This document shows positions 33,537 to 48,805 of a stretch of 64,000 nucleotides of DNA, one piece after another; position 1 is the stretch's first letter, and each line of letters opens with the position of its first letter. The DNA lies in contig JACTMP010000063.1 in NCBI GenBank assembly GCA_014584575.1, positions 1-64,000 on the forward strand. The letters are read 5' to 3'. Source of the stretch: Chloroflexota bacterium (GTDB lineage: Bacteria; Chloroflexota; Anaerolineae; Promineifilales; Promineifilaceae). The translations under genes and the position numbers were made by a program. The notes beneath the pieces were generated by a model. The model was not told where the DNA came from, searched no databases, and saw nothing but the letters and a program-made list of their open reading frames with translations.

Positions 33537-33610
33537 GCGGTGAGCGGTGAGCAGTTATCGGTTATTGGTATTGTGTGTTACGTTTCACGTGTCACGTGTC
33601 ACGTGTCACG
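33518..33610. repeat. two adjacent heptamer arrays: AGTGAGC/GGTGAGC x5 (33518-33554) and CACGTGT x3.5 (33585-33610)
   Basis: agtgagcagtgagcagtgagcggtgagcggtgagcag ... tcacgtgtcacgtgtcacgtgtcacg. Confidence 0.85.
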
Positions 33611-33623
33611 TCTGGAGGTAAAC

Positions 33624-35153: not shown

Positions 35154-35163
35154 GCGAATCATT

Positions 35164-35197
35164 AACCTGACAGGTTTTCCCAAACCTGTCAGGTTTT
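35164..35197 (+). terminator. hairpin AACCTGACAGGTTTT / AAACCTGTCAGGTTTT after the stop
   Basis: aacctgacaggttttcccaaacctgtcaggtttt. The stem is followed by TTTT. Confidence 0.5.
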
Positions 35198-35209
35198 AAG
35201 GAGACAAAC

Positions 35210-35500
35210 ATGAAACGCATCAATAAAAAGTGGCTGGCGGTGCTGGTGCTGCTCACGGCCGTACTGCTCACTGTTGGTCTGGTCTTTGCCGGGGGTGACA
35301 TGCTGCCGCGCAGCCTGGTCAGCAGTGGCGGCGGGCTGGTCAGCCAGGGTGGGTATACCCTGCACAGCGCCATCGGCCAGCCGGTAGTGGGCGCAGTGCA
35401 AAACGAGGCCACGTTGTGCAGCGGCTACCTCTGCGGCGCAGACGCCCCGCCCGTGACCGGCGGCGGCTACCACATCTATCTGCCAGTGACGATTCGCTAA
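35210..35500 (+). CDS. small secreted protein consisting of signal peptide + GQP module + C-terminal IYLPVTIR tail
   Basis: 96 aa. Signal peptide (WLAVLVLLTAVLLTVGLVFA). The module YTLHSAIGQPVVG....SGYL aligns to residues 55-85 of the 491..1165 protein. C-terminal YHIYLPVTIR. Confidence 0.5.
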   Translation: MKRINKKWLAVLVLLTAVLLTVGLVFAGGDMLPRSLVSSGGGLVSQGGYTLHSAIGQPVVGAVQNEATLCSGYLCGADAPPVTGGGYHIYLPVTIR

Positions 35501-35635: not shown

Positions 35636-38600
35636 ATGAAGACAAAACTTCTCTTGGTTGTATTCGTGCCCTTGCTGGTGTTAGTCGTGATCGCTCCCTG
35701 GCGGCACACGGCCGTCAGCGCCAACATCGCCCCCAACCCCAAACCACCTCTGGACGAAACATTGCTGGACATGGCCCAAACTCTGGGCACAGTTCCAGTC
35801 ATTATTGGCGTACACGTGCCCGGTTTTGCCCCGGAAGCGGCCGATGAAGCAGCACAAGTCGCGGCGATTCGTCAGGCGCAAACGGCCGTGCTCGACACAT
35901 TAGCCGGTCATAACATCCACAACGTCAAACAATTCCCCTACATCCCTTACATGGCCCTGTGGGTAGACGAAGCTGGATTGCTGACGTTGCAAGCGGACCC
36001 CACCGTGACCACAATCTATGAAGACCGGTTATACGCCCCGGCCACCAGCGACAGCACCCCTATTATCCGCTCCGACAGCGCCAACAGCATCGGCTATGGC
36101 GGCCAGGGGCGCACGGTGGCCGTGCTGGACACCGGCCTCAACCGCACCCATCCCGACCTGAACGGCAAAGTGGTCTCCGAGGCGTGTTACTCCACCTTCG
36201 ACCCCCTGGCCCTGGCTACCAGTTTATGCCCCAATGGTAACAACAGCCAGACCGGGACGGGTTCATCCAACCCACCACCCAATTATGTGACCGGTTACGA
36301 TCACGGTACCCATGTAGCCGGGATTGTGGCCGGGGTGGCGCCCCAGGCCACTCTCATTGGTATCCAGGTTTTTTCGCGTTTTACCGACATTGCCGGGTCG
36401 CCGCCTGGCCCCTTTACCCCTTGCGCCAACGGCGGACGGCCGTCGCCCTGCACCCTTTCTTATAGTTCTGACCAGATTTTGGGCTTGCAGCGCGTCTATG
36501 CCCTGCGCAACAGCTACAGCATCGCCGCCGTGAACATGAGCCTGGGTGGCGGTTCTTACGCCAGTAACTGTGACAGTCTCAATGCTGCCCTGACCACCAC
36601 CATCCTCAGCCTGCGCACGGCCGGGATCACCACCGTCATCTCGGCTGGCAATAACAGCTATCGCGGTAGCATCGGTGCACCGGCCTGCATTTCCTATGCC
36701 GTCAGTGTGGGTGGCACCACCTCCACGCCAGGCCCGGCGACGCCAGACCAGGTGGGCAGTTACTCCAACGCGGCCAGCATTATGACGTTATGGGCGCCCG
36801 GTGGCTGGATTCATGCGGCCGTGCCCACCTGGGCCACCAGTTGTGGGCCGGGCGTCTCCCCGACCAATAACCGTTGTTACAAACAGGGCACCTCGATGGC
36901 CGCCCCCCATGTGGCCGGGGCCTTAGCCGTCATGCGTTCGGCCGTGCCGGGCGCAACCGTGAACCAGCTCATCAGCGCCCTTACCAGCACCGGGCCATCC
37001 ATCACCGACCAGCGTTCGGGTGGGTTTGTGACCAAACGGCGGCTGGATGTATATGCCGCCACCTGTCAGTTGGCGGGGTGTGACCAGGACGATTTCCGCA
37101 CCCTGACGCTGAACCAGAGTTTGAATGGCTCATTGGGTGTCGGCAATGATTACACCGATGTTTATTATTTCAATGGCACGGCCAACCAGCGGCTGCGCAT
37201 CAGCATGAACCGGCTGTCGGGTACGCTCGACCCGTATCTGGTATTTGTAGACCCCAATGGCAATCTGGTGGCGGTGAATAATGATGGTGGGGCGGGCACC
37301 AATGCGCTGATTGACCCGGTGATATTGCCGGTTAACGGCCGTTACACCATCTATGCCCTGCGCGCTAATTCCGGCTCCGGCACCTACCAGATTCAGGTAT
37401 CACAAGGCACGTTTGGCGCAAACCCCGTGCCCACGCTGCTAAGCATGAACCGCACCTCGGCCACCGTCAACAGCCCCGCCGGTTTTTGGGTGGGGCTGAC
37501 CGGCAATAACTTCTCCTCTAATTCGGTTGTGCGCTGGAATGGGCAGAACCGGCCCACCTCGTATTACAGCAGCACCTTCATCTGGGGCTGGGTGAATGCC
37601 AGCGATACCAACGTTTTGGGCAACTACAGCATCACCGTCTACACCCCCACACCTGGCGGCGGCACCTCGTTTGCCCAAAACTTCCAGATCACCTCAGACC
37701 CGCTGGGGGTGAGCGAGATGTTGGCCCCGCTGCCGGACAGCAGTGTGCCCGTCGGCGTGCAGCAAACCTTTGCCATTAGCTGGACACACCCCATTAGCTC
37801 CTGGCGGGTGATGCAAAACATTGACATTCGCCTGAAAGATGTGACCGACCAGACGGCGTTTTGGATTCGTTTCACTGAAGGCAGCCCCACCAGCACCATT
37901 GGCCTGCTGAACAACAGCGGCGAACATATCGCCAGCAGCCCGCTGGTGAGTGGGCAATACGGCCAGCCGGGAGATATTGAAGTGCCGGATATGGTGACAA
38001 TGCACATGGCCAATACCATCTTTTTTGGCTCCGGGCGCACGGTGATTATCAGTCCCACGGTGACATTTGGCAGCCTGGCCCCTGGCCGCTACATGGTGGA
38101 GTTTACGGTGAACAATGACGAAGGGGAGGTGCAGGATGCGGATGTGGTGGGCGCGTTTTATGTGCTGCCACCGGGTTGTGATACGGCGCTGACCGGGGTG
38201 CAGGTGAATGGGCCGGACACAGGTACGGTGAACAGCAATTACCAGTTCACGGCCGTCATCACCCCCACCGCGCTCGCTGATGTCACCTATGTCTGGTCGC
38301 CAGAGCCGGTGAGTGGGCAGGGCACGGCCGTCGCCACCTTCAACTGGTCACAGGCCGGGATGTGGCCGGTGAACGTCGTCGCCCACCATTGCAGCGGTTT
38401 CCTGGCCGACGTAGCCACCATGGGCATTCGCACCACCGTTGCCCCTGACCTGGAAATCAGCAAGACGGCCCCGGCAACGGCCGTTGCCGGCGACCCCATC
38501 ACCTATACCCTGACCATCACCAACCGGGGCGGCACGGACGCCACCGGGCTGAGTATTACGGACACGCTGCCACCGGGCGCAACTTACGTCTCCGGCGGCA

Positions 38601-39451
38601 GCTACAACGGCAGCCAGGTGAGTTGGAACATTCCCACCCTGCCCGGATACGCCTTCGCCTCGGAGGTTATCGCTGTGGTGACGGCTAACGAGACGATCAG
38701 CAACAGTGTCTACAGCGTGACGGCGGCCGGGGGGTATAGTGCGGTGGGGCAGGAAACGGCCGTGACCCGCATCGTAGACGCCCAGGTAAGGCTGACACCG
38801 CTGTTGACCCGCACACTGCATTACGCGGGCAGCCAAAGTACAGAGATGACCGTGCCTTATGGTTCCGTCTTTGCCGAGACCATGCTGACCTACGACGAGT
38901 TGATGACGCCGCCATATCCGGTTCCATCCGGTTATGCCGGACGTGCCTTCCGCCTGAGTGGGTATCAGGATAACCAGATGATGCCCGACCTGGTGTTGGC
39001 GGAAACGGCCGTGATCACCCTCACCTATTCCCAGACGGCCGTCGCCGGGCTGGATGAAAACCTGCTGACGGTGCATTACTGGGACGGGAATGGCTGGGCA
39101 AGAAATGGGGTGACGTGTGAACGGGATGTGCAGGCCAATTGGGTAAGCTGCCACGTGCCGCGCCCGCCGATGACGGCCTATGCGCTGCTGGAAGGGCGCT
39201 CCACCATCTACCTGCCCTTTATCACCAATGGCCTGACGGCTGAACCCACCCTTTCGGCCACCATCACCGGCATCTCATTGGTGGGCAACCAGTATCATGC
39301 CAACTTCGCAGCGGCCCCTGGTATGTGTATGGTGGCGGCAGCCCCTTTACCGGGTACGGGGTGGCCGACCGGCCCCCGGCGGCCACGCAGCTCTGTGTCC
39401 TGGTGGCGAACCATGATCACAGCATCATTCTGGGCAGCGGCAACTGTATGA
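35636..39451 (+). CDS. S8 family serine peptidase (subtilase) with PPC domain and long C-terminal extension; 3' end frameshifted relative to its downstream duplicate
   Basis: Signal peptide. Catalytic D (VLDTGLNRTHPDL), H (HGTHVAGIVAG) and S (GTSMAAPHVAGALAV). PPC-like segment (DYTDVYYFNGTANQRLRI...GTYQIQV). The last ~48 codons are in a different frame from the intact copy at 41533-41929 because of a 49 nt deletion. Confidence 0.8.
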   Translation: MKTKLLLVVFVPLLVLVVIAPWRHTAVSANIAPNPKPPLDETLLDMAQTLGTVPVIIGVHVPGFAPEAADEAAQVAAIRQAQTAVLDTLAGHNIHNVKQFPYIPYMALWVDEAGLLTLQADPTVTTIYEDRLYAPATSDSTPIIRSDSANSIGYGGQGRTVAVLDTGLNRTHPDLNGKVVSEACYSTFDPLALATSLCPNGNNSQTGTGSSNPPPNYVTGYDHGTHVAGIVAGVAPQATLIGIQVFSRFTDIAGSPPGPFTPCANGGRPSPCTLSYSSDQILGLQRVYALRNSYSIAAVNMSLGGGSYASNCDSLNAALTTTILSLRTAGITTVISAGNNSYRGSIGAPACISYAVSVGGTTSTPGPATPDQVGSYSNAASIMTLWAPGGWIHAAVPTWATSCGPGVSPTNNRCYKQGTSMAAPHVAGALAVMRSAVPGATVNQLISALTSTGPSITDQRSGGFVTKRRLDVYAATCQLAGCDQDDFRTLTLNQSLNGSLGVGNDYTDVYYFNGTANQRLRISMNRLSGTLDPYLVFVDPNGNLVAVNNDGGAGTNALIDPVILPVNGRYTIYALRANSGSGTYQIQVSQGTFGANPVPTLLSMNRTSATVNSPAGFWVGLTGNNFSSNSVVRWNGQNRPTSYYSSTFIWGWVNASDTNVLGNYSITVYTPTPGGGTSFAQNFQITSDPLGVSEMLAPLPDSSVPVGVQQTFAISWTHPISSWRVMQNIDIRLKDVTDQTAFWIRFTEGSPTSTIGLLNNSGEHIASSPLVSGQYGQPGDIEVPDMVTMHMANTIFFGSGRTVIISPTVTFGSLAPGRYMVEFTVNNDEGEVQDADVVGAFYVLPPGCDTALTGVQVNGPDTGTVNSNYQFTAVITPTALADVTYVWSPEPVSGQGTAVATFNWSQAGMWPVNVVAHHCSGFLADVATMGIRTTVAPDLEISKTAPATAVAGDPITYTLTITNRGGTDATGLSITDTLPPGATYVSGGSYNGSQVSWNIPTLPGYAFASEVIAVVTANETISNSVYSVTAAGGYSAVGQETAVTRIVDAQVRLTPLLTRTLHYAGSQSTEMTVPYGSVFAETMLTYDELMTPPYPVPSGYAGRAFRLSGYQDNQMMPDLVLAETAVITLTYSQTAVAGLDENLLTVHYWDGNGWARNGVTCERDVQANWVSCHVPRPPMTAYALLEGRSTIYLPFITNGLTAEPTLSATITGISLVGNQYHANFAAAPGMCMVAAAPLPGTGWPTGPRRPRSSVSWWRTMITASFWAAATV

Positions 39452-39476
39452 ATTTGCCGTAAGCGTGGCCAAGACC

Positions 39477-39510
39477 AGACCCTAAGGGTTTCCCAAAACC
39501 CTTAGGGTCT
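39477..39510 (+). terminator. perfect hairpin AGACCCTAAGGGTTT-CCCAAAA-CCCTTAGGGTCT followed by TATCTTT
   Basis: Read directly. 15 bp stem. Confidence 0.55.
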
Positions 39511-39515
39511 TATCT

Positions 39516-41264
39516 TTGGAGGTAACTATGAAAAACCGGGAATTTTTCCTTTTGTTCAGCGCATTATTGGCGCTAAGTTTTGTCTTGTTTAACATTTTTG
39601 TTACCCACGCCGTTGCCGGTGTTTCCGGTGGTGGTGGGCAGTGGGTGGTGGATCGTCTGGATGACCCGACGCTGCCCGGCGGCTCAGCCTGCACGGAAGC
39701 GCCTGATGATTGCAGCCTGCGTGGGGCACTCAGCGTCTATAATTCGGGCGACCAGATCACCTTCGCCATCACGGGCACCATCACCCTGACCAACGGCGAG
39801 ATACTCATTGCCAATGGCGACGTGACCATCCAGGGGCCAGGCGCGGCCGACCTCATCATCAGCGGCGGTGAGACCAGCCGGATTTTCACCCTCGATCCCA
39901 GCCAGAATGTGACCATTACCGGCGTGACGCTGCGTGATGGGTTTGCCAGCCAGGGGGGCGCAATCTTCAACAATCTCAGCACGCTGACGCTGGCCGATTG
40001 TGTGCTGACGGAAAACACGGCCAGTGACTATGGCGGCGCGATTCAAAACAATGCTGCCACCATTTTCCAACGACCCGCCGGCGCACCCACCTGGGGCGGG
40101 GCGGACGCCCATTTGCTGATTGACAACTGTGTATTGAGCAACAACGCGGCCAGCGGTATAGAGAAAGAAGAGCAGTCTCACGGCGGCCCGACAGGAGTTG
40201 GCGGGGCCATTTACAATACGGCCGTAGGGCCGGGGGCAACGGCCGTTGTCACCATCACCCACAGCACCCTCATCGGCAATACGGCCGATGATGACTTTTA
40301 TGCCGGCGGTGCCATCACCAACTTTGGCTCCGCATTTACCATTCCGGGTAATACCCACGCCGCTGTCTATATCGCCGACAGCACCATCGCCAACAACAGC
40401 GCGCCGAATGGCGATGGCGGCGCTATCGCCAGCTATGCGCTGGATGCCGGTGCATCAACCGCCGTTACCATTCAGAACAGCACCGTCAGCGACAACTCGT
40501 CGGGCAGTGATTTTGGCGGCGGCGGCGGCATTTTCAGCTTTGCCTATAATCGTGATGAGGAGGGGTTGACAGAGGCGACCGTGAACCTGACCGGCAGCAC
40601 CTTTGCCAGTAATGCGGCCACAATGGACAGGGGTGGCGCTCTATTTAATGGCGCACTTGATAGCGGGTCAACGGCCGTCACCCATATCCTCAACAGCACT
40701 TTCAGCGGTAATACAGCGGCCGGCGTGGGCGGCGCTATCGCCAATGATGCCTACAACCGGGATGCGTTGGGCCTGACAAACGCCGCTCTCCACATCACCC
40801 ATGCCAGCTTTGTGGGCAATGATGCGGCTTCCGGCGGGGCCATCGCCAATGTGCCGGTCAGCGAGAACGGAACGTTGGCCGAAGTCCACCTGAAAAACGC
40901 TCTGCTGCACACCAGCAGCGGCGGCGACTGCCAGAACAGCGGCACCATTGATGGTGCCAACAACCTGATTGACGACGACACCTGCGGCACTGATGCCAGC
41001 TTCCGCCTGGGTGCGCCCACGCTGGTTTCGCCGACGCTGGCGGACAATGGTGGCCCCACCCTGACACACGCCTTGCTGGCAGGCACCAATGCCGAAGATG
41101 CCGTGCCGGACGGTGATTGTACGGTAGTCAACACCAGCACCGTCGTTATGGCGGATCAACGCGGTGTGGCCCGGCCTGTGGGCGCAACCTGTGATGTGGG
41201 CGCGGTGGAAGGGGTGATGGTGTCCTTTTCGTTTGGCATTTACCTGCCGGTGATTATCAAGTAG
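39516..41264 (+). CDS. CSLREA-domain / choice-of-anchor-Q-like secreted protein with Pmp (GGAI) beta-helix repeats and C-terminal IYLPVIIK tail
   Basis: Signal peptide. DDCSLRGAL (CSLREA-type) motif. Seven or more GGAI/GGAL repeats. C-terminal DQRGVARPVGATCDVGAVE motif. Ends FGIYLPVIIK. Confidence 0.6.
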   Translation: MEVTMKNREFFLLFSALLALSFVLFNIFVTHAVAGVSGGGGQWVVDRLDDPTLPGGSACTEAPDDCSLRGALSVYNSGDQITFAITGTITLTNGEILIANGDVTIQGPGAADLIISGGETSRIFTLDPSQNVTITGVTLRDGFASQGGAIFNNLSTLTLADCVLTENTASDYGGAIQNNAATIFQRPAGAPTWGGADAHLLIDNCVLSNNAASGIEKEEQSHGGPTGVGGAIYNTAVGPGATAVVTITHSTLIGNTADDDFYAGGAITNFGSAFTIPGNTHAAVYIADSTIANNSAPNGDGGAIASYALDAGASTAVTIQNSTVSDNSSGSDFGGGGGIFSFAYNRDEEGLTEATVNLTGSTFASNAATMDRGGALFNGALDSGSTAVTHILNSTFSGNTAAGVGGAIANDAYNRDALGLTNAALHITHASFVGNDAASGGAIANVPVSENGTLAEVHLKNALLHTSSGGDCQNSGTIDGANNLIDDDTCGTDASFRLGAPTLVSPTLADNGGPTLTHALLAGTNAEDAVPDGDCTVVNTSTVVMADQRGVARPVGATCDVGAVEGVMVSFSFGIYLPVIIK

Positions 41265-41280
41265 CCGAGCCAGCTCTGCC

Positions 41281-41356
41281 AGACCTGTCAGGTCTCTTCG
41301 TTTGTGTTATGCTTGCACGCCAAGACCTGACAGGTTTTTAGAAACCTGTCAGGTCT
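41281..41356 (+). terminator. two hairpins of the AGACCTGNCAGGTCT family after the Pmp-like gene
   Basis: agacctgtcaggtct (41281-41295) and agacctgacaggtttttagaaacctgtcaggtct (41323-41356). Confidence 0.45.
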
Positions 41357-41376
41357 AAACAACCAGGAGTGCAAGT

Positions 41377-41538
41377 ATGACCGACAGTCCACAGCAGCTA
41401 CCCCTTACCTTCTCCTCCCACCATAACCAATCCCTCTTTTCTGACCATTACCTGGACGAAATTTTGCGCCGCAGCGAGAGCTGGCGGCAAGCCATCCCGC
41501 AGGCGCAGGCGTTTCTGGCCTGGCTGCGTGATCTGTGA
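41377..41538 (+). pseudogene. 53-codon stub with good RBS resembling the N-terminus of large RM-type (Type IIG/Eco57I-like) proteins, truncated at the duplication junction
   Basis: AGGAG RBS 7 nt upstream of the ATG. MTDSPQQLPLTFSSHHNQSLFSDHYLDEILRRSESWRQ... The LFSxHYL N-terminus I associate (from memory) with RM enzyme N-termini. The reading frame ends exactly where homology to 39117.. begins. Confidence 0.35.
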
Positions 41539-41929
41539 ACGGGATGTGCAGGCGAATTGGGTAAGCTGCCAGGTGCCGCGCCCGCCGATGACGGCCTATG
41601 CGCTGCTGGAAGGGCGTTCCACCCTTTACCTGCCCTTTATCACCAATGGCCTGACGGCTGAACCCACCCTTTCGGCCACCATCACCGGCATCTCATTGGT
41701 GGGCAACCAGTATCATGCCAACTTCGTTCACTTCTTCTTCAACACCGTGCCGCCAGAGCAGGTCGGTGTGCCTGGCAGCGGCCCCTGGTATGTGTATGGT
41801 GGCGGCAGCCCCTTTACCGGGTACGGGGTGGCCGACCGGCCGCAGGCGGCCACGCAGCTCTGTGTTCTGGTGGCAAACCATGATCACAGCGTCATTCTGG
41901 GCAGCGGCAACTGTATGAATTTGCCGTAG
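41533..41929 (+). pseudogene. detached duplicate of the subtilase 3' end (intact ancestral frame), with its own terminator
   Basis: About 90% identical to 39117-39462 but containing 49 extra nt (encoding VHFFFNTVPPEQVGVPG) that restore a clean frame to NCMNLP*. No plausible independent N-terminus or signal peptide. Confidence 0.45.
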
Positions 41930-41936
41930 TCCGGCA

Positions 41937-41970
41937 AGACCCGAAAGGTTTCAGAAAACCCTTCGGGTCT
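41937..41970 (+). terminator. hairpin AGACCCGAAAGGTTT-CAGAAAA-CCCTTCGGGTCT (diverged copy of the 39477 terminator with partly compensatory changes)
   Basis: Read directly. Confidence 0.5.
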
Positions 41971-42090
41971 TTAGTTGATGTGTTTGCCGGTGGCGGTACG
42001 GCCGTAGGGGAAAAAGCGCAGGTTGCAACCTGCGCTTTTTTATTTGCAAAGGTTTTTTGGACGTGTTGAATTTCTGCTACAATCGAAACT

Positions 42091-43344
42091 GTGGATGCCC
42101 AGATAAACAATCGTAACCAGATCATCGCCCAACCATTCAGTAAACAAACGCTTGGGGCAACGCTGAAAGCCGCCTTGAGCGGCCAAATCGCACCTTTTCA
42201 CACGTTTCGCGCGGCCGTTGCCTTTGTAAAACGCTCTGGTGTCCAGCACATTCAGACGGAATTACAGCAATTTGTGCAAAGAGGAGGTCTGGCGCGAGTT
42301 ATCGTGGGGATTGATCAGCTTGGGTCTAGTCGTGAAGGATTGGCCGGTTTGCTAAACGCGGTAGGAGAGTCTGGTTCTGTCTGGGTTAATCGAACGACTG
42401 AAACGTATGTGACTTTTCACCCCAAAGTGTATTTGTTTGCGGCTGATGATGTGGCTTTGCTGATCGTTGGCTCTGGCAATTTGACGGAGGGCGGCCTGTA
42501 CACCAATGATGAAGCTTCGCTGATGTATTGGCTGGCGTTGCAGGAACCAGAGGATCAGGCGCTTTGGCAGGAAATCAACGCCTATTTGGACCAGTGGGGT
42601 GATGCGGCTAATGGCAATGCGATACAACTAACGGCCGATTTGCTCAATGAATTAGTTGAGGCAGGGCTGGTTCCGACAGAGGAGAAAATTGAGCGAGAAG
42701 GGGATGAGGCAACGGCCGTTTCCCCCACACCATCCCCTCAACCGGCAACACAACTGGCGCATGTGTTCTTCAAGAAATCGGCCGTTAAACGCACTGCGCC
42801 ACGTTCCAAAACCAGTGTGCCAAAACCGAAAAAGCCCACTTTACCGCCCGAAGAAGAGGTCTCGCAACCGGTTGAGTTGGCTATGGAAGCGCCCATTGGC
42901 TTTGTTATGATTTTGCAGCGCACAGATGTCGGCACGGGGCAGACAACGACAGGAACCAGTCGCCGTTCGCCAGAAATCTTCATCCCGTTAGCTGCCAGAG
43001 ATGTTTTTCCTGAGTTTTGGGGTTGGCCGACGTTGTTTGTCGAAGACGCAGCGCGACCCGGCAAGTATGATCGTCAGGCGGTCAAGATGCGGATTGGCGG
43101 GGATTTGGTCATGGTTAATATGATGACCTGGCCGGTCAAGCACGATTTCCGGTTGCGTAGCGAAGCGTTACGCAGCGCAGGGGCCATTGGCGATATTTTG
43201 CGCCTGGAAAAGCCAACAGAAGGAACTCCCTTTGCGTATTACGTGGAGATCATCCCGCAGGGAACCAGCGATTACGAGAGTTATCTGGCTTTGTGCGTAA
43301 ACCAGGTGCGAAATTCTGCGAAGCGGTGGGGGTATTACCGTTAG
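42091..43344 (+). CDS. PLD-family (NgoFVII/BfiI-like) restriction endonuclease candidate with C-terminal B3/EcoRII-N-like DNA-binding domain
   Basis: N-terminal ~150 aa carry a single HxK-type motif (TFHPKVYLFAADD) typical of PLD nucleases. The C-terminal ~170 aa (ILQRTDVGTGQTTTG...EIFIPLAARDVFPEFWG) resemble B3-like DNA-recognition domains. Adjacent to two MTases. The stop overlaps the MTase stop region. Confidence 0.5.
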   Translation: MDAQINNRNQIIAQPFSKQTLGATLKAALSGQIAPFHTFRAAVAFVKRSGVQHIQTELQQFVQRGGLARVIVGIDQLGSSREGLAGLLNAVGESGSVWVNRTTETYVTFHPKVYLFAADDVALLIVGSGNLTEGGLYTNDEASLMYWLALQEPEDQALWQEINAYLDQWGDAANGNAIQLTADLLNELVEAGLVPTEEKIEREGDEATAVSPTPSPQPATQLAHVFFKKSAVKRTAPRSKTSVPKPKKPTLPPEEEVSQPVELAMEAPIGFVMILQRTDVGTGQTTTGTSRRSPEIFIPLAARDVFPEFWGWPTLFVEDAARPGKYDRQAVKMRIGGDLVMVNMMTWPVKHDFRLRSEALRSAGAIGDILRLEKPTEGTPFAYYVEIIPQGTSDYESYLALCVNQVRNSAKRWGYYR

Positions 43345-44954
43345 TTGTTGCGGAAGCAAAGGATGGTTTCGGCGCTGCTGGCATTTTTCTTGAAAATATC
43401 ACGCGATACCAGCATTTCCATCGGGATTTGCTCGACCAGATGCAGGCCAGCCGCTTCCCCCAATTCGCCCAATAGCTGATCCGTTTCGATGTCTACGCGC
43501 TCGCCTCCGGCGATGGTGTGATTGTTACCGACCACGACAAAAGCGGGCGCGCCGGGACGCAGCAGACGCGGGAATGTTTCTAGCACCTGACGCATGTCGA
43601 AGAAATAACGGGCTAACAGAGCGGGCAGATTTTGTCGCCGAAAGCCCACATTGGCGTCCTGGTTCAGGTGGTGAATGCGGTCAATAACGGCCGTTATCCC
43701 CCCCGTCAATCTCCCCCGATTTTGTTCATACTCCGCCCAATACGCCTGACGACGGCCGTTGCTAATCTCCCGGTTGCCGATCATCTGGTAATCGCGTGAC
43801 CGATGCCCCGGGCGCGAGAGCAAACCCAAAAAGTAGAGGCTCAAACGGTCTGTATCCAGATAGGGCAGAGCAGTAGCGTAAGGCGGCGAAGTGATAATGG
43901 CATCAATCTGTGCTGTGCGCGCCGCCAGTAATCTATCCGCTTGTTGGGCATTTCCTTCACGAATATCGGCCGCACCAATAGCCTGACCCTGGTTTTCGTA
44001 CAAAAAGGCCAGAATTATCTTTACAGAGCGATTGAGTTCCGTCAAAAACTCAGAAATTGTGTCAGGAATTTCATCAGAAACGTCCCGGCGCACGCGCAAG
44101 TCGTCATCTTTCTGCCAGGAGACACGGCGCAAAATGTTACTCAGGCTGACCATAAACAAGCGGCGGCAAGCAAGATTTGGTATTTGCTGAATACGGATCA
44201 TGATCCGATCCAGCGCGGTTAACACTTCGGGGGCAAACCAATTTGAGAGATACGTGCGGTCTGGCTCGCTGAGAGTGTTTAACCAGGCGAATGAGTGTTC
44301 TGGCGCAGCGGGTTCGGTCAGTAAATCCGTATTCACCGCTGCAAACTGTTCGGCCAATTGCGCTGGCGGCACGGCCAAAATATCGCATTTGGTCTGGCTG
44401 ACAAGCACCGAGAGGGGGTTCATGTCCAGCCCATAAGCCTGACAACCAAGCAGGACAGCTTCAACGGCCGTTGTCCCACTTCCCGACATGGGATCCAGCA
44501 CCTTCGCTCCTGGTTTGATTTCAGCGATGTTGAGTAGAGAACGAACCAATTGAGGGAAGAATTTGCCGCGATATTCGTGGATGCCATGTGGCCCATAGCG
44601 CAGGTTCCGCCGGTTGGGAATGGGCACATGACCGTTAAAGGGAAGCATCGTTTGAAGCTGAACGGCCGTAACCCCATTTCGTGCTAGTGTGGTAGTGGCT
44701 TCGCGGCGCACCTGTTGGGTGAGTTGGAGGGAGGGAACGGCCGTTTCTCCACCCACTCCCTCCCAATAAGCCAGATGCCCGACCAAATCCGCCGGTTCTA
44801 CCGATGATTCAACCCAATAATCGCCCGTCTCCTCATGCGCCAGATTGAGGCAGGCGACAGGTTCATGTCCGGTCAGGGCAGCCAACTCCCTAAGCGCCAA
44901 CGTTTTCTCAAACGGTTGAATGTACGGTTTCAGGCGACAAATCACTTTGCCCAC
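43341..44954 (-). CDS. DNA methyltransferase (alpha class; motif I then SPPY), candidate m4C/m6A
   Basis: Motif I (LDPMSGSGTT) is N-terminal to motif IV (IITSPPYATA). Length 537 aa. Confidence 0.75.
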   Translation of the reverse strand: MGKVICRLKPYIQPFEKTLALRELAALTGHEPVACLNLAHEETGDYWVESSVEPADLVGHLAYWEGVGGETAVPSLQLTQQVRREATTTLARNGVTAVQLQTMLPFNGHVPIPNRRNLRYGPHGIHEYRGKFFPQLVRSLLNIAEIKPGAKVLDPMSGSGTTAVEAVLLGCQAYGLDMNPLSVLVSQTKCDILAVPPAQLAEQFAAVNTDLLTEPAAPEHSFAWLNTLSEPDRTYLSNWFAPEVLTALDRIMIRIQQIPNLACRRLFMVSLSNILRRVSWQKDDDLRVRRDVSDEIPDTISEFLTELNRSVKIILAFLYENQGQAIGAADIREGNAQQADRLLAARTAQIDAIITSPPYATALPYLDTDRLSLYFLGLLSRPGHRSRDYQMIGNREISNGRRQAYWAEYEQNRGRLTGGITAVIDRIHHLNQDANVGFRRQNLPALLARYFFDMRQVLETFPRLLRPGAPAFVVVGNNHTIAGGERVDIETDQLLGELGEAAGLHLVEQIPMEMLVSRDIFKKNASSAETILCFRNN

Positions 44955-46411
44955 TATCGCCCCCTCTGACGCGCTCTGTTACGCAGAATGACAATGTGTT
45001 CATCCTTAATTTTGCCAATTGCCGGGTTGAATGATTTTTTGCTGGCCTGCAAATGGCGCGTCAAATTTGCCGCAGCCTCATAACCGGCTGCCTCCGCTAC
45101 TTCGATCAAAAGTTGATCGTTTTGGATGCGTTGCCCTTTGATTGTCGAATCGCCAATCACAAAACAGGCGTAACGATTTGGCTTCAGCGTATGGGAAAGC
45201 CAGGAGAGAATGGTGAACAATTCGCCGCGAAAGGTATCGGCTGTTGCCCCATTGCTCCCCTTGTGGCTGTATTTGCGATGGCTGCCAATCTCTTCCTGTT
45301 TAAATTTTGGCTGGTCCATATCCAACCATAACATGCGGGTCCGGTGATAAAGGTGATAACTGTAAGCATTGGGATAAGGTGGTGAACAGACAACCAGATC
45401 AACCGGTTCGACGTCTGGCGGTTCTAATATGTTCGCCTGGTGGATGGTAGCGGTGAAACGGCCGTCTACCTCTTCACCAAATTCCACCACCCGCTGTACG
45501 GCCTGCGCCAACGTGCGGCCGAAAAGTTGCAGTGTGTCCCCCGGTTTAATGTTCTTCTGGCGGCGCACATAGCGCGTATCTGAATCCTGCCGCGACACGG
45601 CAACGATAATGGCCGAAAATGCAGTTAGCGCCAATTGCCTTGCTTTCTCTGACCCAAGTGATAGGCATTTTGTCTTGATAAATGACAGTTCTTCGATCAC
45701 CGGCTGGTCAAACCATTCTTCTACACCTTCAAATGCTGGCATCGGGGCAGACTGAGGAAATGGGGATAATTCAGGGAACAAAGGTAAGGTTCCCATAAAA
45801 GTCTGTTGGGCAAAATAACTAATTTCCTCAACCAACCCCCTCAGGCAGCCCACCTCTGCTTCGTCCAATAAAGTCGTTTTGGCCCGGCTGATCAGGCAAG
45901 CCAATGGGTTTGCGTCTATGCCGATAGCGTGGCATTCCAGGCGCAACGCTTCGACTAAAGTCGTGCCACTGCCACAAAACGGATCCAGCACTGTATCGCC
46001 GATTGATGCCAATTCTCGAATAAGTGCCTTCGGAATTTGGGGGATGTATTTCGCCGGGTAAGGGTGGATGGCGTGGGTCAGGTAGCCGGTGTTTGCGTTG
46101 ATAAAATCCCAATCTATCTTTTCCAAACGAGGGATTGCTCCGATGGGCGCTTCATAAACCACCGCGCTTTCTTTGAGGATTGGCGCGGCCGTACCATTGA
46201 CTTGTCGGGCAAATTCCACAATTGTTTGCGCTTCTTCATGGGTGAACAATCGCCAGTCATTCCGATCTCGTCCCGGTTCGGAGATGCGTCCCTCGCGCAG
46301 CCAGCGCAACAGCGTATCGCGGTGAATGCCCGCCATTTGGGAGACTTGCTTGGTGGAATAAGTTGCACCGCTCATAGCGGCATTGTAACGCATACCTGCA
46401 ACTATATGCAA
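44954..46411 (-). CDS. DNA methyltransferase (motif I then SPPY) with N-terminal MerR/excisionase-like HTH
   Basis: HTH (YSTKQVSQMAGIHRDTLLRWLREGRI). Motif I (LDPFCGSGTT). Motif IV (VVCSPPYPNAY). Shares an ATG/stop overlap with the upstream MTase. Confidence 0.75.
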   Translation of the reverse strand: MHIVAGMRYNAAMSGATYSTKQVSQMAGIHRDTLLRWLREGRISEPGRDRNDWRLFTHEEAQTIVEFARQVNGTAAPILKESAVVYEAPIGAIPRLEKIDWDFINANTGYLTHAIHPYPAKYIPQIPKALIRELASIGDTVLDPFCGSGTTLVEALRLECHAIGIDANPLACLISRAKTTLLDEAEVGCLRGLVEEISYFAQQTFMGTLPLFPELSPFPQSAPMPAFEGVEEWFDQPVIEELSFIKTKCLSLGSEKARQLALTAFSAIIVAVSRQDSDTRYVRRQKNIKPGDTLQLFGRTLAQAVQRVVEFGEEVDGRFTATIHQANILEPPDVEPVDLVVCSPPYPNAYSYHLYHRTRMLWLDMDQPKFKQEEIGSHRKYSHKGSNGATADTFRGELFTILSWLSHTLKPNRYACFVIGDSTIKGQRIQNDQLLIEVAEAAGYEAAANLTRHLQASKKSFNPAIGKIKDEHIVILRNRARQRGR

Positions 46412-46440
46412 CTATAGTTTCCCATGGCGTTATTTGGCCC

Positions 46441-46499
46441 AACGGCCGTTCCCCCCTCCCAATGTTGCACGTGTGGGTGGTGGGGTGGGTACGGCCGTT
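46441..46499. repeat. 58 nt element (direct repeat, left copy) flanking the vapBC module
   Basis: AACGGCCGTTCCCCCCTCCCAATGTTGCACGTGTGGGTGGTGGGGTGGGTACGGCCGTT. Confidence 0.7.
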
Positions 46500-46531
46500 C
46501 AACGGTCAATGGATTGGCAAGATGGGTAACT

Positions 46532-46943
46532 TAAAGCGTAGAAAGCCAGTTTTCTAGCTGTAGCTGAGGGATGGGCTGGAAATCTTTGTCGGTGGTCAAC
46601 AATATCAAATCGTGGCGCAAGGCGATGGCGGCAACGAGCGCATCTACGGTTTCCAGTTGTCGGCCCCGCGACTGCGAAGGGCTATTTGCAATTGGGCAGC
46701 AAACTCGGCGTCTGTTTCATCCGGTATGTAACAAGTCAGCAAAGGCTTAAGGCGTTCCCACTCGGCCAGGTTTTGTTTGGCGCGAGGCAGCAGGGCAATG
46801 CCAAATAATGTTTCAGTGATGCCGGGTACACAAATGGCAAAGTTATCCCCATCATCAAGCCTTTGCAGAATACGCTCACGCAGAGGGTGGCTGATAGTGA
46901 TCAACGGGGAGGCGTGGTTGGTATCCAGCAGGTAATTTGCCAT
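46532..46943 (-). pseudogene. vapC: PIN-domain toxin vapC, disrupted by a single frameshift in a CGCGGGGCC run
   Basis: N-terminal part MANYLLDTNHAS...ALRSRG (46644..46943) stops after ADNWKP. The -1 frame continues RQLETVDALVAAIALRHDLILLTTDKDFQPIPQLQLENWL to a stop at 46532. Together they form a complete VapC. Confidence 0.6.
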
Positions 46944-47010
46944 GTCAGGCGTACCCTTCGGCGGCAGCGTTGGCGCGGGAGATGGCCTCCATCTCCGCTT
47001 CTACAACAGT

Positions 47011-47289
47011 TCAGGACTGGTTCCAGGTTGCCAGATCAAAATCAGGGTCTTCTGGGGCACGGCGTAATGCCTCGGCTAAAGAACCGCTAGCCAGACGTAA
47101 ACTACCAGGATTGACCGGGGTAGCCTGTATTCTGGCAACTACTTCTTCGGGCGAGGGGAATGCCGTTTCTGTTTCCAGAGCATCATGCAACAGTTCAACG
47201 ATCAACTGCTCTAGAGGCACACGTTCCATTTGTGCTTTACGCTGAAGTTTGCGTTCCATTTCGTGGGGCATACTAATGATTACAGTCAT
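47011..47289 (-). CDS. vapB: VapB-type antitoxin
   Basis: 92 aa, upstream of vapC on the same strand. The tail DPDFDLATWNQ is typical of PIN-binding antitoxin tails. N-terminal region is RHH/SpoVT-like. Confidence 0.5.
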   Translation of the reverse strand: MTVIISMPHEMERKLQRKAQMERVPLEQLIVELLHDALETETAFPSPEEVVARIQATPVNPGSLRLASGSLAEALRRAPEDPDFDLATWNQS

Positions 47290-47391
47290 GCTGCACCTCC
47301 GTCACTCAGTCCGCCTTTTGTCCGATCCTTGCTAACTTTTGCAAGTATAGTCTGGTTCGTGATGTTATTCAATCATGCTAATGGATGGCAA

Positions 47392-47449
47392 AACGGCCGT
47401 CCCCCCCTCCCAAATTTCCGCGTGTGGGTGGTGGGGCGGAACGGCCGTT
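47392..47449. repeat. 58 nt element (direct repeat, right copy) flanking the vapBC module
   Basis: AACGGCCGTCCCCCCCTCCCAAATTTCCGCGTGTGGGTGGTGGGGCGGAACGGCCGTT (~85% identical to the copy at 46441). Confidence 0.7.
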
Positions 47450-47599
47450 TTCTCCGGTTAGTTCAACATGAATTATGCATTACGCTGGTCGAACCACCGC
47501 CCAGGGCTTGATATTCAGCGCCGCAAGCAGTATATCATAATCCGCAGGCAACCGGCTGCCGCTAGAACCATCCAGGCGCAGGCTGCCAGGCAGTCAGAT

Positions 47600-47992
47600 T
47601 CAAGACGCTGCGATTGGTGGGGAACTGTCAAGAAGCGCCTGGGCATGAGTTTCAATTTGGCTGATGAAATCGGGCGATATAAGCATTTGACCGGTGCGGG
47701 CATCAATGTCCAGGTGCGCTACCTGGCCTAAAAGTCCGCGACGTGGCGAGGAGAGCAGGATTGGGACGCGCCAGACAATCCGCCCCTGGATGAGCAGAAG
47801 GGTAGGGTCGCCGCCGCCCATCAAATGGTTGACATGGCTGCCCACGTAACCACTGGCCTGCTGGCGGGCGGTGTAGGCGGTTATGTTGACAATCGGTTCG
47901 CCAGGAGCGGCAATAACATATTCGTTTTGATGTAGTACAGTCTCGATATCCATTGCATTTGATCCCGCTTGACGTGAAATGATGAGCCGCAT
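47600..47992 (-). CDS. hypothetical protein
   Basis: 130 aa ORF with no recognisable motif. Confidence 0.25.
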   Translation of the reverse strand: MRLIISRQAGSNAMDIETVLHQNEYVIAAPGEPIVNITAYTARQQASGYVGSHVNHLMGGGDPTLLLIQGRIVWRVPILLSSPRRGLLGQVAHLDIDARTGQMLISPDFISQIETHAQALLDSSPPIAAS

Positions 47993-48073
47993 TATAACAT
48001 GGTGGGTGGTGTTGTCCTACATGCGCTGACTTTATGGGAACGGCCGTTTTCTATCAGCGTGGAATCATAAAGA

Positions 48074-48805
48074 CTAGAGCCTCCCCTGGTCCTTCAGCCA
48101 CTTCAGCCCTTCGCGGGCGCTAAGGGGGGCCAGCGGGGTGGCAGCAATGAAGGCCACCACCGCCCCGGCGTTCGTTTTGGAATATTCGCGCAGCGCCCAG
48201 CCAATCGCTTTCTGAATGAAAAACTCATCCGAGTCCAGATTTTCCCGGATCAGGCTGAACAACAAATCAACATCGGTCTGGCTTTTATAGGGGAGTTGGA
48301 AGAGCAGAGTGGTGCGGCGCAGCCAGAAATTATCACTGATACGCCAGGCGGCAACGGCCGTGTCCCGCACCTGTGGATACCGCTGGAAATGGTCCGCCAC
48401 GCTGCCTCCCGCCAGGCTATCTACCGTATCCCACCATGATTTGGTCACAATGAGATATTCCAACACCGTCACAAATTCGGGCGGCTGTTTCTTGATCAGC
48501 CGGTCCAAAAAGGTGAAGGCGCTGTACTGGTATTCCCGCTCTGGCAGCGCCCACAATCCGCGCAAGACCGCTTCCAGATCGCCGGGCTGCGGCAGGCCAT
48601 GAGCGGCAATGAATTCTTTCAGCAGCGCCCGGCGCGCCGGCGTTTTGATCCCTAAAAAGGGGAATTGATCACGCATGTATCGGGACATGGGCGCGGCGTC
48701 CGCCGGGTTGGCGTGCTGCGTCAGCAGCGATTGCAGGGTTTGTACATAGGTAGACATAGACCTTATTGTGGCTGAAAACGGCCGTTCTGACGACATTATT
48801 TTCAT
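48074..48805 (-). CDS. DNA alkylation repair protein (AlkD/AlkC-like HEAT-repeat glycosylase family)
   Basis: Pattern ...RYMRDQFPFLGIKTP.RR...WW.VDSLA...A.GWALREYSKTN..AV..F matches the DNA_alkylation family from memory. Confidence 0.65.
   Translation of the reverse strand: MKIMSSERPFSATIRSMSTYVQTLQSLLTQHANPADAAPMSRYMRDQFPFLGIKTPARRALLKEFIAAHGLPQPGDLEAVLRGLWALPEREYQYSAFTFLDRLIKKQPPEFVTVLEYLIVTKSWWDTVDSLAGGSVADHFQRYPQVRDTAVAAWRISDNFWLRRTTLLFQLPYKSQTDVDLLFSLIRENLDSDEFFIQKAIGWALREYSKTNAGAVVAFIAATPLAPLSAREGLKWLKDQGRL

What the first reader, a model, noticed from the sequence alone, without database searches (positions are those of the whole stretch)
39117..41978. Segmental duplication of the subtilase 3' end plus terminator; the copy attached to the subtilase carries a 49 nt deletion (frameshift) while the detached copy keeps the ancestral frame
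The segment 39117-39510 (end of the S8 peptidase gene plus terminator hairpin) recurs at 41533-41970 with about 90% identity. The detached copy has 49 extra nt (VHFFFNTVPPEQVGVPG) and a clean frame to NCMNLP*. The in-gene copy lacks them, so the last ~48 aa of the subtilase are out of frame. The two terminator hairpins differ by partly compensatory substitutions (CCTAAGGG/CCCTTAGGG versus CCGAAAGG/CCTTCGGG). This argues against an assembly artefact. The Pmp/CSLREA gene and the RM stub lie between the copies. This looks like a cassette-like rearrangement of C-terminal modules of secreted proteins.
Basis: seen in the sequence. Interest (0 to 1): 0.6.

Follow-up and report, generated by a model that had tools for sequence, protein, structure and literature searches.

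The report
Recombination scar duplicating a protease gene end
The last ~350-400 bases of a secreted protease gene occur twice because two alternative versions of the variable DNA downstream of that gene were joined by an illegitimate recombination event; this is an ordinary rearrangement scar, not a cassette system.

Summary
Copy A (39119-39462, inside the S8 peptidase gene) and copy B (41537-41929) differ by 11 substitutions in 344 aligned bases (96.8%) and one 49-nt indel. The indel frameshifts the last 47 codons of the in-gene copy.

The interpretation needs correcting.
- Six related loci carry the module only once, fused to the peptidase.
- Copy A plus its TAA stop, hairpin and Pmp-like gene match one relative (L004/L117). 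Copy B plus its TAG stop and downstream flank match the Pmp-less arrangement. The window is therefore a hybrid of two haplotypes of a hypervariable slot between the peptidase gene and alkD.
- The left edge of copy B is an illegitimate joint (TGT, 41534-41536) that cuts a decayed gene at codon 51-53.
- The two hairpins are not duplicates of one another.
- Copy B is not ancestral. Both copies lack 13 codons present in every homologue. An independent read assembly (Logan, DRR859381) has copy B with those 39 nt and is otherwise identical over 6.6 kb.

The best explanation is one-sided homologous plus illegitimate recombination (HFIR-like) during island replacement, followed by a gene-conversion patch and a further 49-nt deletion. 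I found no recombinase or module-precise boundary that would indicate a cassette mechanism. Interest is low.

The parts
35636..39451 (+). S8 (subtilase) peptidase gene. It is in frame with orthologues up to 39307 (residue 1224). The stretch 39308-39451 is a 47-codon out-of-frame tail.
   Evidence: Pfam PF00082 E = 5e-32, plus PPC, DUF11 and choice-of-anchor Z repeat. BLASTP against the 1305-aa orthologue P0176 gives 89% identity over residues 1-1224 and no similarity after that.
39119..39462 (+). Copy A of the repeat (the in-gene 3' end), with a TAA stop in the ancestral frame at 39460-39462. The deletion joint is at 39307|39308. Copy A lacks 88 nt relative to orthologues and 49 nt relative to copy B.
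39477..39510 (+). Hairpin T_A (15-bp perfect stem, 4-nt loop, terminator-like). It is orthologous to the hairpin that follows the peptidase gene in L004.
39528..41264 (+). Pmp-like secreted protein gene (Chlam_PMP repeat, choice-of-anchor Q domain, ...IYLPVIIK* tail).
   Evidence: Family hits. It is 82% nt identical and colinear with L004 10055-12034. The identical protein sits on Logan contigs from 20 or more runs.
41377..41538 (+). Relatives extend to at least 165 conserved residues.
   Evidence: 92% aa identity to L004 residues 1-53. No family hit. The rest of the gene is absent from the window.
41534..41536 (+). Illegitimate recombination joint. TGT is shared by the remnant gene (...CGTGATCTGT|ATGCC in L004) and by the peptidase gene (...GTGACGTGT|GAACGG at 39110-39124).
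   Evidence: three-way comparison of 39070-39150, 41488-41568 and L004 14771-14851
41537..41929 (+). Copy B of the repeat (the detached 3' end), with a TAG stop. The joint of the 39-nt gap is at 41725|41726. The 49 nt absent from copy A are 41726-41774.
41937..41970 (+). Hairpin T_B. It belongs to the same local hairpin family as 35163-35196, 39477-39510 and 41323-41356.
   Evidence: (family D6)
41978..42041 (+). Intergenic remnant of another gene's last 9 codons (TGT TTG CCG GTG GCG GTA CGG CCG TAG, reading CLPVAVRP*), followed by a terminator hairpin (GCGCAGGT TGCA ACCTGCGC, then a T run, 42010-42041).
   Evidence: The same sequence forms the true 3' end (YLPVVVRP*) of a 2342-aa gene in L134. 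It also occurs in L004/L117 and L001.
42091..47455 (.). Defence island: PLD-family restriction endonuclease (42091-43344, +), two type II DNA methyltransferases (43341-44954 and 44954-46411, -), a possible toxin/antitoxin pair by position (46644-46943 and 47011-47289, -; L134 has a PIN-domain gene at the corresponding position), and a REP-like palindromic element (47386-47455).
   Evidence: Family hits. Absent from relatives L001-L005. Present at 95.4% nt identity in a different genomic context, with a large serine recombinase, in L134. The REP-like element is shown.
48074..48805 (-). alkD-like DNA alkylation repair gene, the conserved right-hand flank of the variable slot.
   Evidence: Pfam PF08713 E = 2e-64. 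In L005 it follows the peptidase gene almost directly. It is also the right flank in L117.

Best explanation
Shown: the window joins two alternative versions of the variable region that lies between the S8 peptidase gene and alkD.
- Version 1, as in relative L004/L117: peptidase - TAA - hairpin T_A - Pmp-like gene - ... - a decaying gene.
- Version 2, as in Logan contigs L110 and L130, and without Pmp as in L001/L002/L003/L005: peptidase - TAG - hairpin T_B - tail remnant plus terminator - defence island - alkD.
- The novel joint is TGT at 41534-41536. There codon 51-53 of the decaying gene meets the peptidase sequence 392 nt before its stop codon.

Inferred mechanism: a one-sided homologous recombination with an illegitimate joint at the other end (homology-facilitated illegitimate recombination, HFIR). 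Most simply, a DNA fragment from a version-2 strain of the same species happened to start inside the peptidase 3' end. It carried the defence island and recombined homologously on the alkD side. On the left it joined by microhomology inside the resident decaying gene and deleted the rest of that gene. The mirror event, or single-crossover integration of a circularised version-1 fragment, gives the same product.

Inferred later steps: the copies exchanged a patch around the deletion site by gene conversion, so both now carry the same 39-nt gap. The in-gene copy then lost a further 49 nt, which frameshifted the C-terminal FN3-like domain of the peptidase. Copy B has no signal peptide and no promoter of its own, and it encodes an incomplete domain. 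It is a passenger fragment.
For: 1. Six related loci (L001-L006) have one module, fused to the peptidase.
2. The flank of copy A (TAA stop, hairpin, Pmp start) is almost identical to L004 (a handful of differences in the ~130 nt shown) and stays colinear through Pmp at 82%. Copy B has the TAG stop found in L001/2/3/5/6, a family hairpin at the same position as in L002/L005, and a tail remnant plus terminator resembling L001 and L006.
3. Joint anatomy: 3 nt of exact microhomology, 7 of 9 when extended. The remnant gene is cut at codon 51-53, whereas relatives keep at least 117-165 codons, and the rest of the gene is absent from the window. The literature gives 3-10 bp of microhomology as typical for HFIR, usually with a deletion of resident DNA. 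It also reports duplications of 109-950 bp of the homologous segment arising by single crossover (PMC3240628).
4. A and B are each other's nearest relatives (96.3% against at most 88% to the orthologues). dN/dS in the ancestral frame is 0.21 (6 synonymous, 4 non-synonymous, Fisher p = 0.017). Most divergence therefore arose while both sequences were translated alleles. The variants are mosaic in another strain (L130).
5. A 166-nt SNP-free run surrounds the shared 39-nt gap (p about 0.007 by simulation). The B allele without the gap exists in run DRR859381. This points to a gene-conversion patch between copies that sit in the same genome.
6. The slot is hypervariable and holds other nested 3'-end remnants of secreted-protein genes.
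7. The T_A-Pmp contigs (at least 20 runs) and several separate T_B-island contigs are 100% identical to the window. They break inside the 37-nt stretch that A and B share before the stop codon, as expected if both copies are present in the reads.
Against: - No read-level or independent-assembly evidence spans the joint at 41534-41536 or either deletion joint. Look-ups of the 53-aa ORF and of P0001 found nothing, and the metagenome pattern search gave 0 hits.
- The direction of the event, that is which version was resident, cannot be told.
- The gaps in A and B share the same left breakpoint. This needs either a conversion step or a deletion hotspot.
- Logan contig L110 shows copy B without the 39-nt gap, so that gap is either strain-specific or an error in the source assembly. 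The frameshift in A has no independent check either.
- L130-type strains seem to hold two copies as well, so the event may be older than 'recent'.
- Whether this organism takes up DNA is unknown.
Confidence: 0.55

Rival explanations
1. Assembly chimera. Two co-occurring strains, one with Pmp and one without, were concatenated by the assembler, so no single genome holds both copies. The two internal gaps might also be assembly or polishing errors.
For: The source is a metagenome-assembled contig of 221 kb. Run DRR859381 yields copy B without the 39-nt gap, and that contig does not break at stretches shared with copy A, so B-only populations probably exist. Relative L005 has a scaffold gap (a run of N) at the same spot in the module.
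Against: The joint between the remnant gene and the peptidase sequence has only 3 nt of exact overlap, so no k-mer graph can create it. It must exist in reads, and it necessarily places a module fragment downstream of Pmp. The two copies carry different gaps (39 and 88 nt relative to orthologues) whose joints have no repeated k-mer, so bubble popping cannot explain them (inference). The shared derived 39-nt gap inside a 166-nt SNP-free tract suggests exchange within one genome.
Confidence: 0.12
2. A tandem duplication of the unit 39119-41536 arose in situ within a Pmp-containing chromosome. The copies then diverged, and the second Pmp copy was lost or replaced by the defence island.
For: The head-to-tail geometry and the microhomology joint are what unequal illegitimate crossing-over produces.
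Against: Copy B is followed by the Pmp-less type of flank (TAG stop, different hairpin, tail remnant and terminator as in L001/L006), not by T_A-Pmp. This model needs extra, precise steps. A dN/dS of 0.21 is not expected for a detached fragment and a frameshifted tail that diverged after duplication.
Confidence: 0.1
3. Site-specific integration of an element that carries its own replacement copy of the target gene's 3' end, as for elements inserted in tRNA genes or in icd. The displaced native end would be left at the far side.
For: The layout gene body - new 3' end - inserted DNA - old 3' end is the same. The neighbouring defence island is linked to a large serine recombinase in another genome (L134).
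Against: No integrase or transposase lies between the copies or in 41972-48073. The left border of copy B lies inside a truncated gene rather than at an element end. Serine recombinases do not generate repeats of about 350 nt (established knowledge). In L134 the island abuts a different gene.
Confidence: 0.05
4. A functional system for switching C-terminal modules. The detached copy would be a silent spare that can be recombined back into the peptidase gene.
For: 353 nt of direct repeat at 97% identity would allow RecA-mediated recombination, which would excise Pmp and restore the reading frame. 3'-end fragments of secreted-protein genes recur in this slot in three contexts. The domain is promiscuous over evolutionary time.
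Against: The spare encodes the same domain at 96% identity, not an alternative one, and is itself defective (13 conserved codons missing, including an invariant His). There is no array, no dedicated recombinase and no immunity-like partner gene. The repeat does not start at a domain border. Six related loci lack a second copy.
Confidence: 0.04

Closest known systems
Homology-facilitated illegitimate recombination (HFIR), and single-crossover duplications, as described for S. pneumoniae, Acinetobacter baylyi, P. stutzeri and E. coli (PMC3240628)
   Same: There is one novel joint with 3-10 bp of microhomology. The resident gene is truncated at the joint. Foreign or allelic DNA is inserted next to a homologous anchor. 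Duplications of 109-950 bp of the homologous segment flanking the inserted DNA were reported in that paper.
   Different: Here the event is inferred from comparative anatomy only. The donor, the recipient, the anchor and the mode of DNA uptake are unknown.
Displacement of T6SS effector 3' ends and immunity genes by incoming modules in Vibrio cholerae (PMC5361080)
   Same: An incoming module is joined by an HFIR-like event and shifts the old 3' end of a gene downstream. Serial events leave nested remnants.
   Different: There is no effector/immunity logic here. The displaced end is the same allele-level sequence, not a different toxin.
Rhs/CdiA 'orphan' C-terminal modules (PMC3150448, listed)
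   Same: A detached 3' fragment retains upstream homology to the main gene and lies a short distance downstream.
   Different: Orphans encode distinct toxin tips with cognate immunity genes. Here the fragment is a 96%-identical, defective copy with no partner gene.
Prophage or element integration into the 3' end of a protein-coding gene with a replacement end, such as e14 and phage 21 in E. coli icd (from my own knowledge, not checked with the tools)
   Same: Gene body, then a substitute 3' end, then inserted DNA, then the displaced native 3' end.
   Different: No integrase and no att core are present, and the left border of the displaced copy is an illegitimate joint inside another gene.

Membership tests
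HFIR-type recombination product | Novel joint with short (3-10 bp) microhomology between otherwise unrelated sequences | tested here: met
   TGT is exact and 7 of 9 positions match when extended, between the remnant gene (L004 14771-14851 as reference) and the peptidase at 39110-39118. The criterion comes from PMC3240628.
HFIR-type recombination product | Resident DNA is deleted or truncated at the illegitimate joint | tested here: met
   The remnant gene stops at codon 51-53, whereas relatives keep at least 117-165 codons. The remainder is absent from the 64-kb window.
HFIR-type recombination product | Homologous anchor on the other side, and a donor with a different arrangement | tested here: inconclusive
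   Both arrangements exist in relatives (L004/L117 against L001/2/3/5) and probably within the species (L110, L130). The crossover in the anchor cannot be located without the parental genomes.
HFIR-type recombination product | DNA uptake by the organism (transformation or conjugation) | not testable with these tools
   Only 64 kb of an uncultured Chloroflexota genome is available.
Simple tandem duplication | The second unit is followed by the same sequence as the first unit | tested here: not met
   Copy A is followed by TAA, T_A and Pmp. Copy B is followed by TAG, T_B, a tail remnant, a terminator and the PLD gene.
Rhs/CDI-type orphan C-terminal module | The orphan encodes a different (polymorphic) C-terminal domain and is followed by a cognate immunity gene | tested here: not met
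   It is the same domain with 4 amino-acid differences. The next features are hairpins and a restriction-modification island.
Integrative element with duplicated target 3' end | An integrase or recombinase gene within the element, and repeats that coincide with the element ends | tested here: not met
   Pfam scans of all ORFs in 39516-48805 find no recombinase. The left end of copy B lies inside a truncated ORF.
Peptidase S8 (subtilase), for the host gene | Match to the S8 catalytic domain above the curated cut-off | tested here: met
   PF00082, 111.8 bits against a cut-off of 21.8, residues 162-459.
   No hit in Pfam, NCBIfam, PADLOC or PDB for the stub or for longer relatives. Relatives show a PD...EVK motif...TNGRxWRL..., and a ...LYALTEEEI... 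tail. From memory these resemble type IIG enzymes. That is a lead only.

The most novel reading that the evidence does not exclude
The slot between the peptidase gene and alkD could be a hotspot where incoming islands are repeatedly captured through the 3' ends of secreted-protein genes. The conserved tails such as YLPVVVRP*, plus the hairpin and ACGGCCGT-bounded elements, would act as preferred recombination substrates. This would amount to a Chloroflexota-specific form of 'C-terminal displacement' that leaves nested gene-end fragments. The direct repeats might also allow reversible loss of Pmp with restoration of the peptidase frame.
Probability: 0.08. Interest if true: 0.5.

Novelty: new member of a known kind. 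Interest (0 to 1): 0.2.

Why it matters
On its own it matters little. It is a well-documented example of how island turnover next to a gene can leave a partial duplicate of that gene's 3' end and, later, a frameshifted gene. It is useful as a caution for annotation. The 113-aa 'hypothetical protein' called on copy B is a gene fragment, and the peptidase has probably lost its C-terminal domain. It also shows that the slot between the S8 gene and alkD is a recombination hotspot in this group of Chloroflexota. The by-products may be worth more than the duplication itself: an unannotated FN3-like extracytoplasmic domain family, a highly over-represented octamer palindrome, and families of REP-like hairpins.

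Tried and rejected
- Exact-pattern scan of JGI metagenome contigs for the 39-nt-gap joint found 0 hits.
- The scan for close Pmp relatives in metagenome contigs returned only one moderately close locus (L084, 64% aa). There Pmp sits upstream of the fibre gene, so it does not inform on the joint.
- Exact look-ups of P0001 (the annotated 113-aa product of copy B) and of the 53-aa remnant ORF were not on record, so no independent contig spans the joint.
- Contigs carrying the small upstream gene all stop before the peptidase gene, so they say nothing about the peptidase-module junction.
- Alignment A2 was too gappy for the locus search. I replaced it with the trimmed A3.
- The afdb50 fold library was not available.
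- Two protein searches with the remnant gene's N-terminus found only short remnants or contig-limited fragments. No library names the family, so 'RM' stays unverified.
- I looked for slippage repeats flanking the 39-nt and 49-nt gaps and found none beyond 1 nt (reading).
- I considered that hairpins T_A and T_B are diverged duplicates with compensatory evolution. I rejected this because T_A is orthologous to the L004 hairpin and T_B belongs with the TAG-type flank.

Full report
OBSERVATION

The repeat is present as described. The repeat finder reports 39110-39308 / 41528-41726 (199 nt, 96%) and 39308-39461 / 41775-41928 (154 nt, 97%). A pairwise alignment shows one 49-nt segment present only in the downstream copy. 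blastn gives E = 3e-146. Neither blastn nor tblastn finds a third copy in the 64-kb window. My base-by-base count is 11 substitutions in 344 aligned positions (96.8%). The B-only segment is 41726-41774.

The peptidase ORF (35636-39451) is colinear with a 1305-aa orthologue at 89% identity for residues 1-1224. After that it has an unrelated 47-residue tail. Copy B reads in the ancestral frame to NCMNLP*.

WHAT THE MODULE IS

The repeated stretch encodes the end of the preceding part of the peptidase (…CERDVQANWVSC…YALLEGRSTIYLPFITNG…) followed by a conserved domain of about 100 residues.
- The domain has no Pfam or NCBIfam model.
- A profile search finds 672 clusters at 50% identity.
- A locus search finds 369 loci among species-representative genomes. 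Those listed are nearly all Chloroflexota, with a few Actinomycetota.
- The domain sits at the C-terminal end, often in 2-5 tandem copies, of Ser/Thr kinases and of FHA, Hsp70-like, cupredoxin and S8 proteins.

NEITHER COPY IS INTACT

All 12 database homologues carry 13 residues (QTxGFTPQLPGxH) between …QYxVxF and VHFFFNTVPP. So do five of the six related loci (L001-L004 and L006; L005 has a run of N at this spot). Both window copies lack them.

In the model these are residues 33-45. They cover the end of strand 2, the connecting loop and the start of strand 3, including an invariant His. Copy B therefore lacks 39 nt and copy A lacks 88 nt relative to the orthologues, and both gaps have the same left breakpoint.

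COMPARATIVE ANATOMY

Six related loci (74-88% nt identity to the window over the module; 79-88% over the peptidase gene) hold an orthologous peptidase gene with a single module. What follows the gene differs between them.
- L005: the alkD-like gene that lies at 48074-48805 in the window follows almost directly.
- L004, and the closed 5.0-Mb genome behind L117: the order is Pmp-like gene, C11 peptidase, a fusion ORF, a 388-aa ORF, an IS, then alkD.
- L001 and L003: other cargo.

This is a hypervariable slot.

Copy A's stop codon (TAA), its hairpin and the start of Pmp are almost identical to L004, and colinearity continues through Pmp at 82%. Copy B has the TAG stop of L001/2/3/5/6 and a family hairpin where L002 and L005 have one. 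It is then followed by a short tail remnant and a terminator resembling L001 and L006. The window is therefore a hybrid of a Pmp-containing and a Pmp-less arrangement. This excludes a simple tandem duplication.

THE JOINT

The ORF at 41377-41538 matches the first 53 residues of the L004 fusion ORF at 92%. Relatives of this gene continue for at least 117-165 conserved residues. The remainder is nowhere in the window.

Aligning the peptidase (39070-39150), the joint (41488-41568) and L004 (14771-14851) shows that the switch occurs at TGT (41534-41536). Three nt match exactly, and 7 of 9 match when the comparison is extended. That is the signature of illegitimate recombination. It also cannot be produced by a k-mer graph.

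The same gene occurs in relatives only as remnants, with different truncation points or internal deletions. No library assigns it to a family, so the 'RM' label remains a plausible but untested lead.

THE RIGHT SIDE

The stretch 41979-47450 encodes a PLD-family endonuclease and two type II methyltransferases. It also has two small minus-strand ORFs where L134 carries a PIN-domain gene and a partner. It recurs at 95.4% identity in another genome (L134). There it lies directly after a 2342-aa secreted protein gene and is followed by a large serine recombinase.

The homology begins inside that gene's last nine codons. YLPVVVRP* in L134 corresponds to an intergenic remnant CLPVAVRP* at 41978-42004 in the window. 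The same tail plus hairpin ends the fusion ORF of L004/L117, and it lies in degenerate form right after the peptidase stop codon in L001. Fragments of gene 3' ends therefore mark several earlier replacement events in this slot. Copy B is one more such fragment.

INDEPENDENT ASSEMBLIES

Logan contigs from many sequencing runs match the window at 100% identity. One group covers 39425/39432-41352 (20 or more runs). Another starts at 41899 and runs into the island. Both break inside the 37-nt stretch that A and B share just before the stop codon, as expected if both copies are present in the reads.

One contig, L110 from DRR859381, equals window 41573-48154 with no mismatch but with a 39-nt insertion that restores the 13 missing codons. 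It does not break at the stretches shared with copy A. So the 39-nt gap is not fixed in this lineage, and a B-only (Pmp-less) population probably exists.

Contigs of a strain that is 97.5% identical (L130-L133) all start at 41836, in a way that implies a second, A-like copy. Their module is a mosaic of A-type and B-type variants.

No independent contig spans the joint or either deletion joint.

HISTORY OF THE TWO COPIES

A and B are each other's closest relatives (96.3% against at most 88% to any orthologue). In the ancestral frame they differ by 6 synonymous and 4 non-synonymous changes (dN/dS 0.21, Fisher p = 0.017). This fits divergence as translated alleles in different strains better than decay after duplication.

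The 166 nt around the gap carry no substitution (p about 0.007 for 11 changes placed at random). Both copies also share the derived 39-nt gap that L110 lacks. The simplest reading is a gene-conversion patch between the two copies in one genome, followed by a further 49-nt loss in copy A.

The gap joints have no flanking repeats beyond 1 nt (reading). They are therefore unlikely to be graph artefacts. Read-level confirmation is still needed.

MECHANISM

The structure is what homology-facilitated illegitimate recombination, or the related single-crossover integration of a circularised fragment, produces: a microhomology joint, truncation of a resident gene, and a duplicated homologous segment of a few hundred bp flanking the inserted DNA (PMC3240628). 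The same logic was proposed for displacement of effector 3' ends in Vibrio T6SS clusters and for Rhs loci (PMC5361080).
- Shown: the anatomy, the two haplotypes and the joint.
- Inferred: the direction of the event, the anchor and the conversion step.

NOT A CASSETTE SYSTEM

- The repeat does not begin at a domain border.
- The spare copy encodes the same domain and is itself defective.
- There is no recombinase, array or partner gene.
- Relatives have a single copy.
- The hairpins belong to a local family of four similar stem-loops (35163, 39477, 41323, 41937) and are inherited with their respective haplotypes. The 'compensatory' difference therefore reflects family-level stem conservation, not divergence after duplication.

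VERDICT

This is an ordinary recombination scar in a hypervariable, defence-island-bearing slot, with a probable loss of the peptidase's C-terminal domain. Interest is low (0.2). The main open point is read-level verification of the three joints.

Noticed in passing
whole window, e.g. 41998-42005, 47393-47400, 47441-47448: The octamer palindrome ACGGCCGT occurs 140 times in 64 kb, against 1.46 expected from dinucleotide-preserving shuffles. This is a highly iterated palindrome comparable in excess to cyanobacterial HIP1. Its density is similar inside the defence island (13 copies in about 6 kb). A full-text search for the string found no paper whose title or abstract concerns it.
   Followed up: partly
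window 41537-41929; proteins P0002-P0163: The module encodes an unannotated FN3-like beta-sandwich domain of about 100 residues, with the conserved motifs HVHFFFNTVPPEQAG and ATQLCVLVANPDHSV…GNC..LP. It forms 672 clusters at 50% identity, almost all in Chloroflexota. It is found C-terminally, often in tandem, in Ser/Thr kinases and in FHA, Hsp70-like, cupredoxin and S8 proteins. There is no Pfam or NCBIfam model and no close PDB fold match.
   Followed up: partly
window 35480-35500, 41244-41264, 39209-39230; L004 14470-14494; L134 9882-9908: Many secreted proteins of this locus and its relatives end in a short tail (I/V)YLP(V/L/F)xx(K/R)*, for example IYLPVTIR*, IYLPVIIK*, IFLPVIVR* and YLPVVVRP*. 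In the peptidase the same motif (IYLPFITNG) precedes the extra C-terminal domain. This may be a lineage-specific sorting or anchoring signal. It was not investigated.
   Followed up: no
window 35163-35196, 39477-39510, 41281-41295, 41323-41356, 41937-41970: A local family of stem-loops AGACC-N5/6-GGTTT…AAACC-N5/6-GGTCT with variable inner stems lies after successive genes. Related species have members at the same position after the peptidase stop codon (L002, L005: GACCTGACAGGTC…).
   Followed up: partly
window 47386-47455 (partial copy 46441-46485); L117 21134-21284 (three tandem copies); L134 14386-14446 and 15331-15396; L001 8388-8447: A palindromic element of about 60 nt, bounded by AACGGCCGT…ACGGCCGTT and predicted to fold at -36 kcal/mol, sits at the right border of the variable slot in several genomes. 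It also marks the end of the window/L134 island homology. It looks REP- or MITE-like.
   Followed up: partly
window 9629, 11200, 16887, 24874, 29029, 29645, 33216, 55190, 59325: Other intergenic hairpins have stems built of short internal repeats, for example GAGATTAGAGATTGG…CCAATCTCTAATCTC, GTAATTGAGTAATTGGG… and TGATGCGTGATGCG…. Several recur as pairs at distant sites.
   Followed up: no
L134 9880-19123 (GCA_019637635.1, JAHBVI010000011.1): The PLD endonuclease, two methyltransferases and PIN island of the window recur at 95.4% nt identity in a different genome and context. There they are accompanied by an HTH_17 gene and a large serine recombinase, so the island is or was mobile. The window copy lacks the recombinase.
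   Followed up: partly
L004 14661-15206; L117 18375-18920: In the relative with the Pmp arrangement, the same decaying gene is cut after about 117 codons. It is fused in frame to the last ~65 codons of a CarboxypepD_reg/SdrD_B gene ending YLPVVVRP*. This is a second, independent case of 'remnant gene joined to the 3' end of a secreted-protein gene'.
   Followed up: partly
L005 about 9863-10000: The scaffold of relative L005 has unrelated sequence and a run of N inside the module, exactly where the window copies have their gaps. This could be an assembly problem or another rearrangement at the same spot.
   Followed up: no
L004 12010-12034 and 14553-14577, compared with window 41271-41295: The C11 peptidase gene, present in L004/L117 and absent from the window, appears to be flanked by a 25-nt direct repeat of the GACCTGTCAGGTC hairpin. 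This is inferred from overlapping blast segments. It suggests insertion or deletion through these hairpins.
   Followed up: no
L084 1-3315: In a more distant metagenome relative, the Pmp-like gene lies upstream of the fibre-like gene and the small secreted protein that precede the peptidase in the window (33540-35500). So the Pmp gene changes position within this cluster of secreted-protein genes.
   Followed up: no
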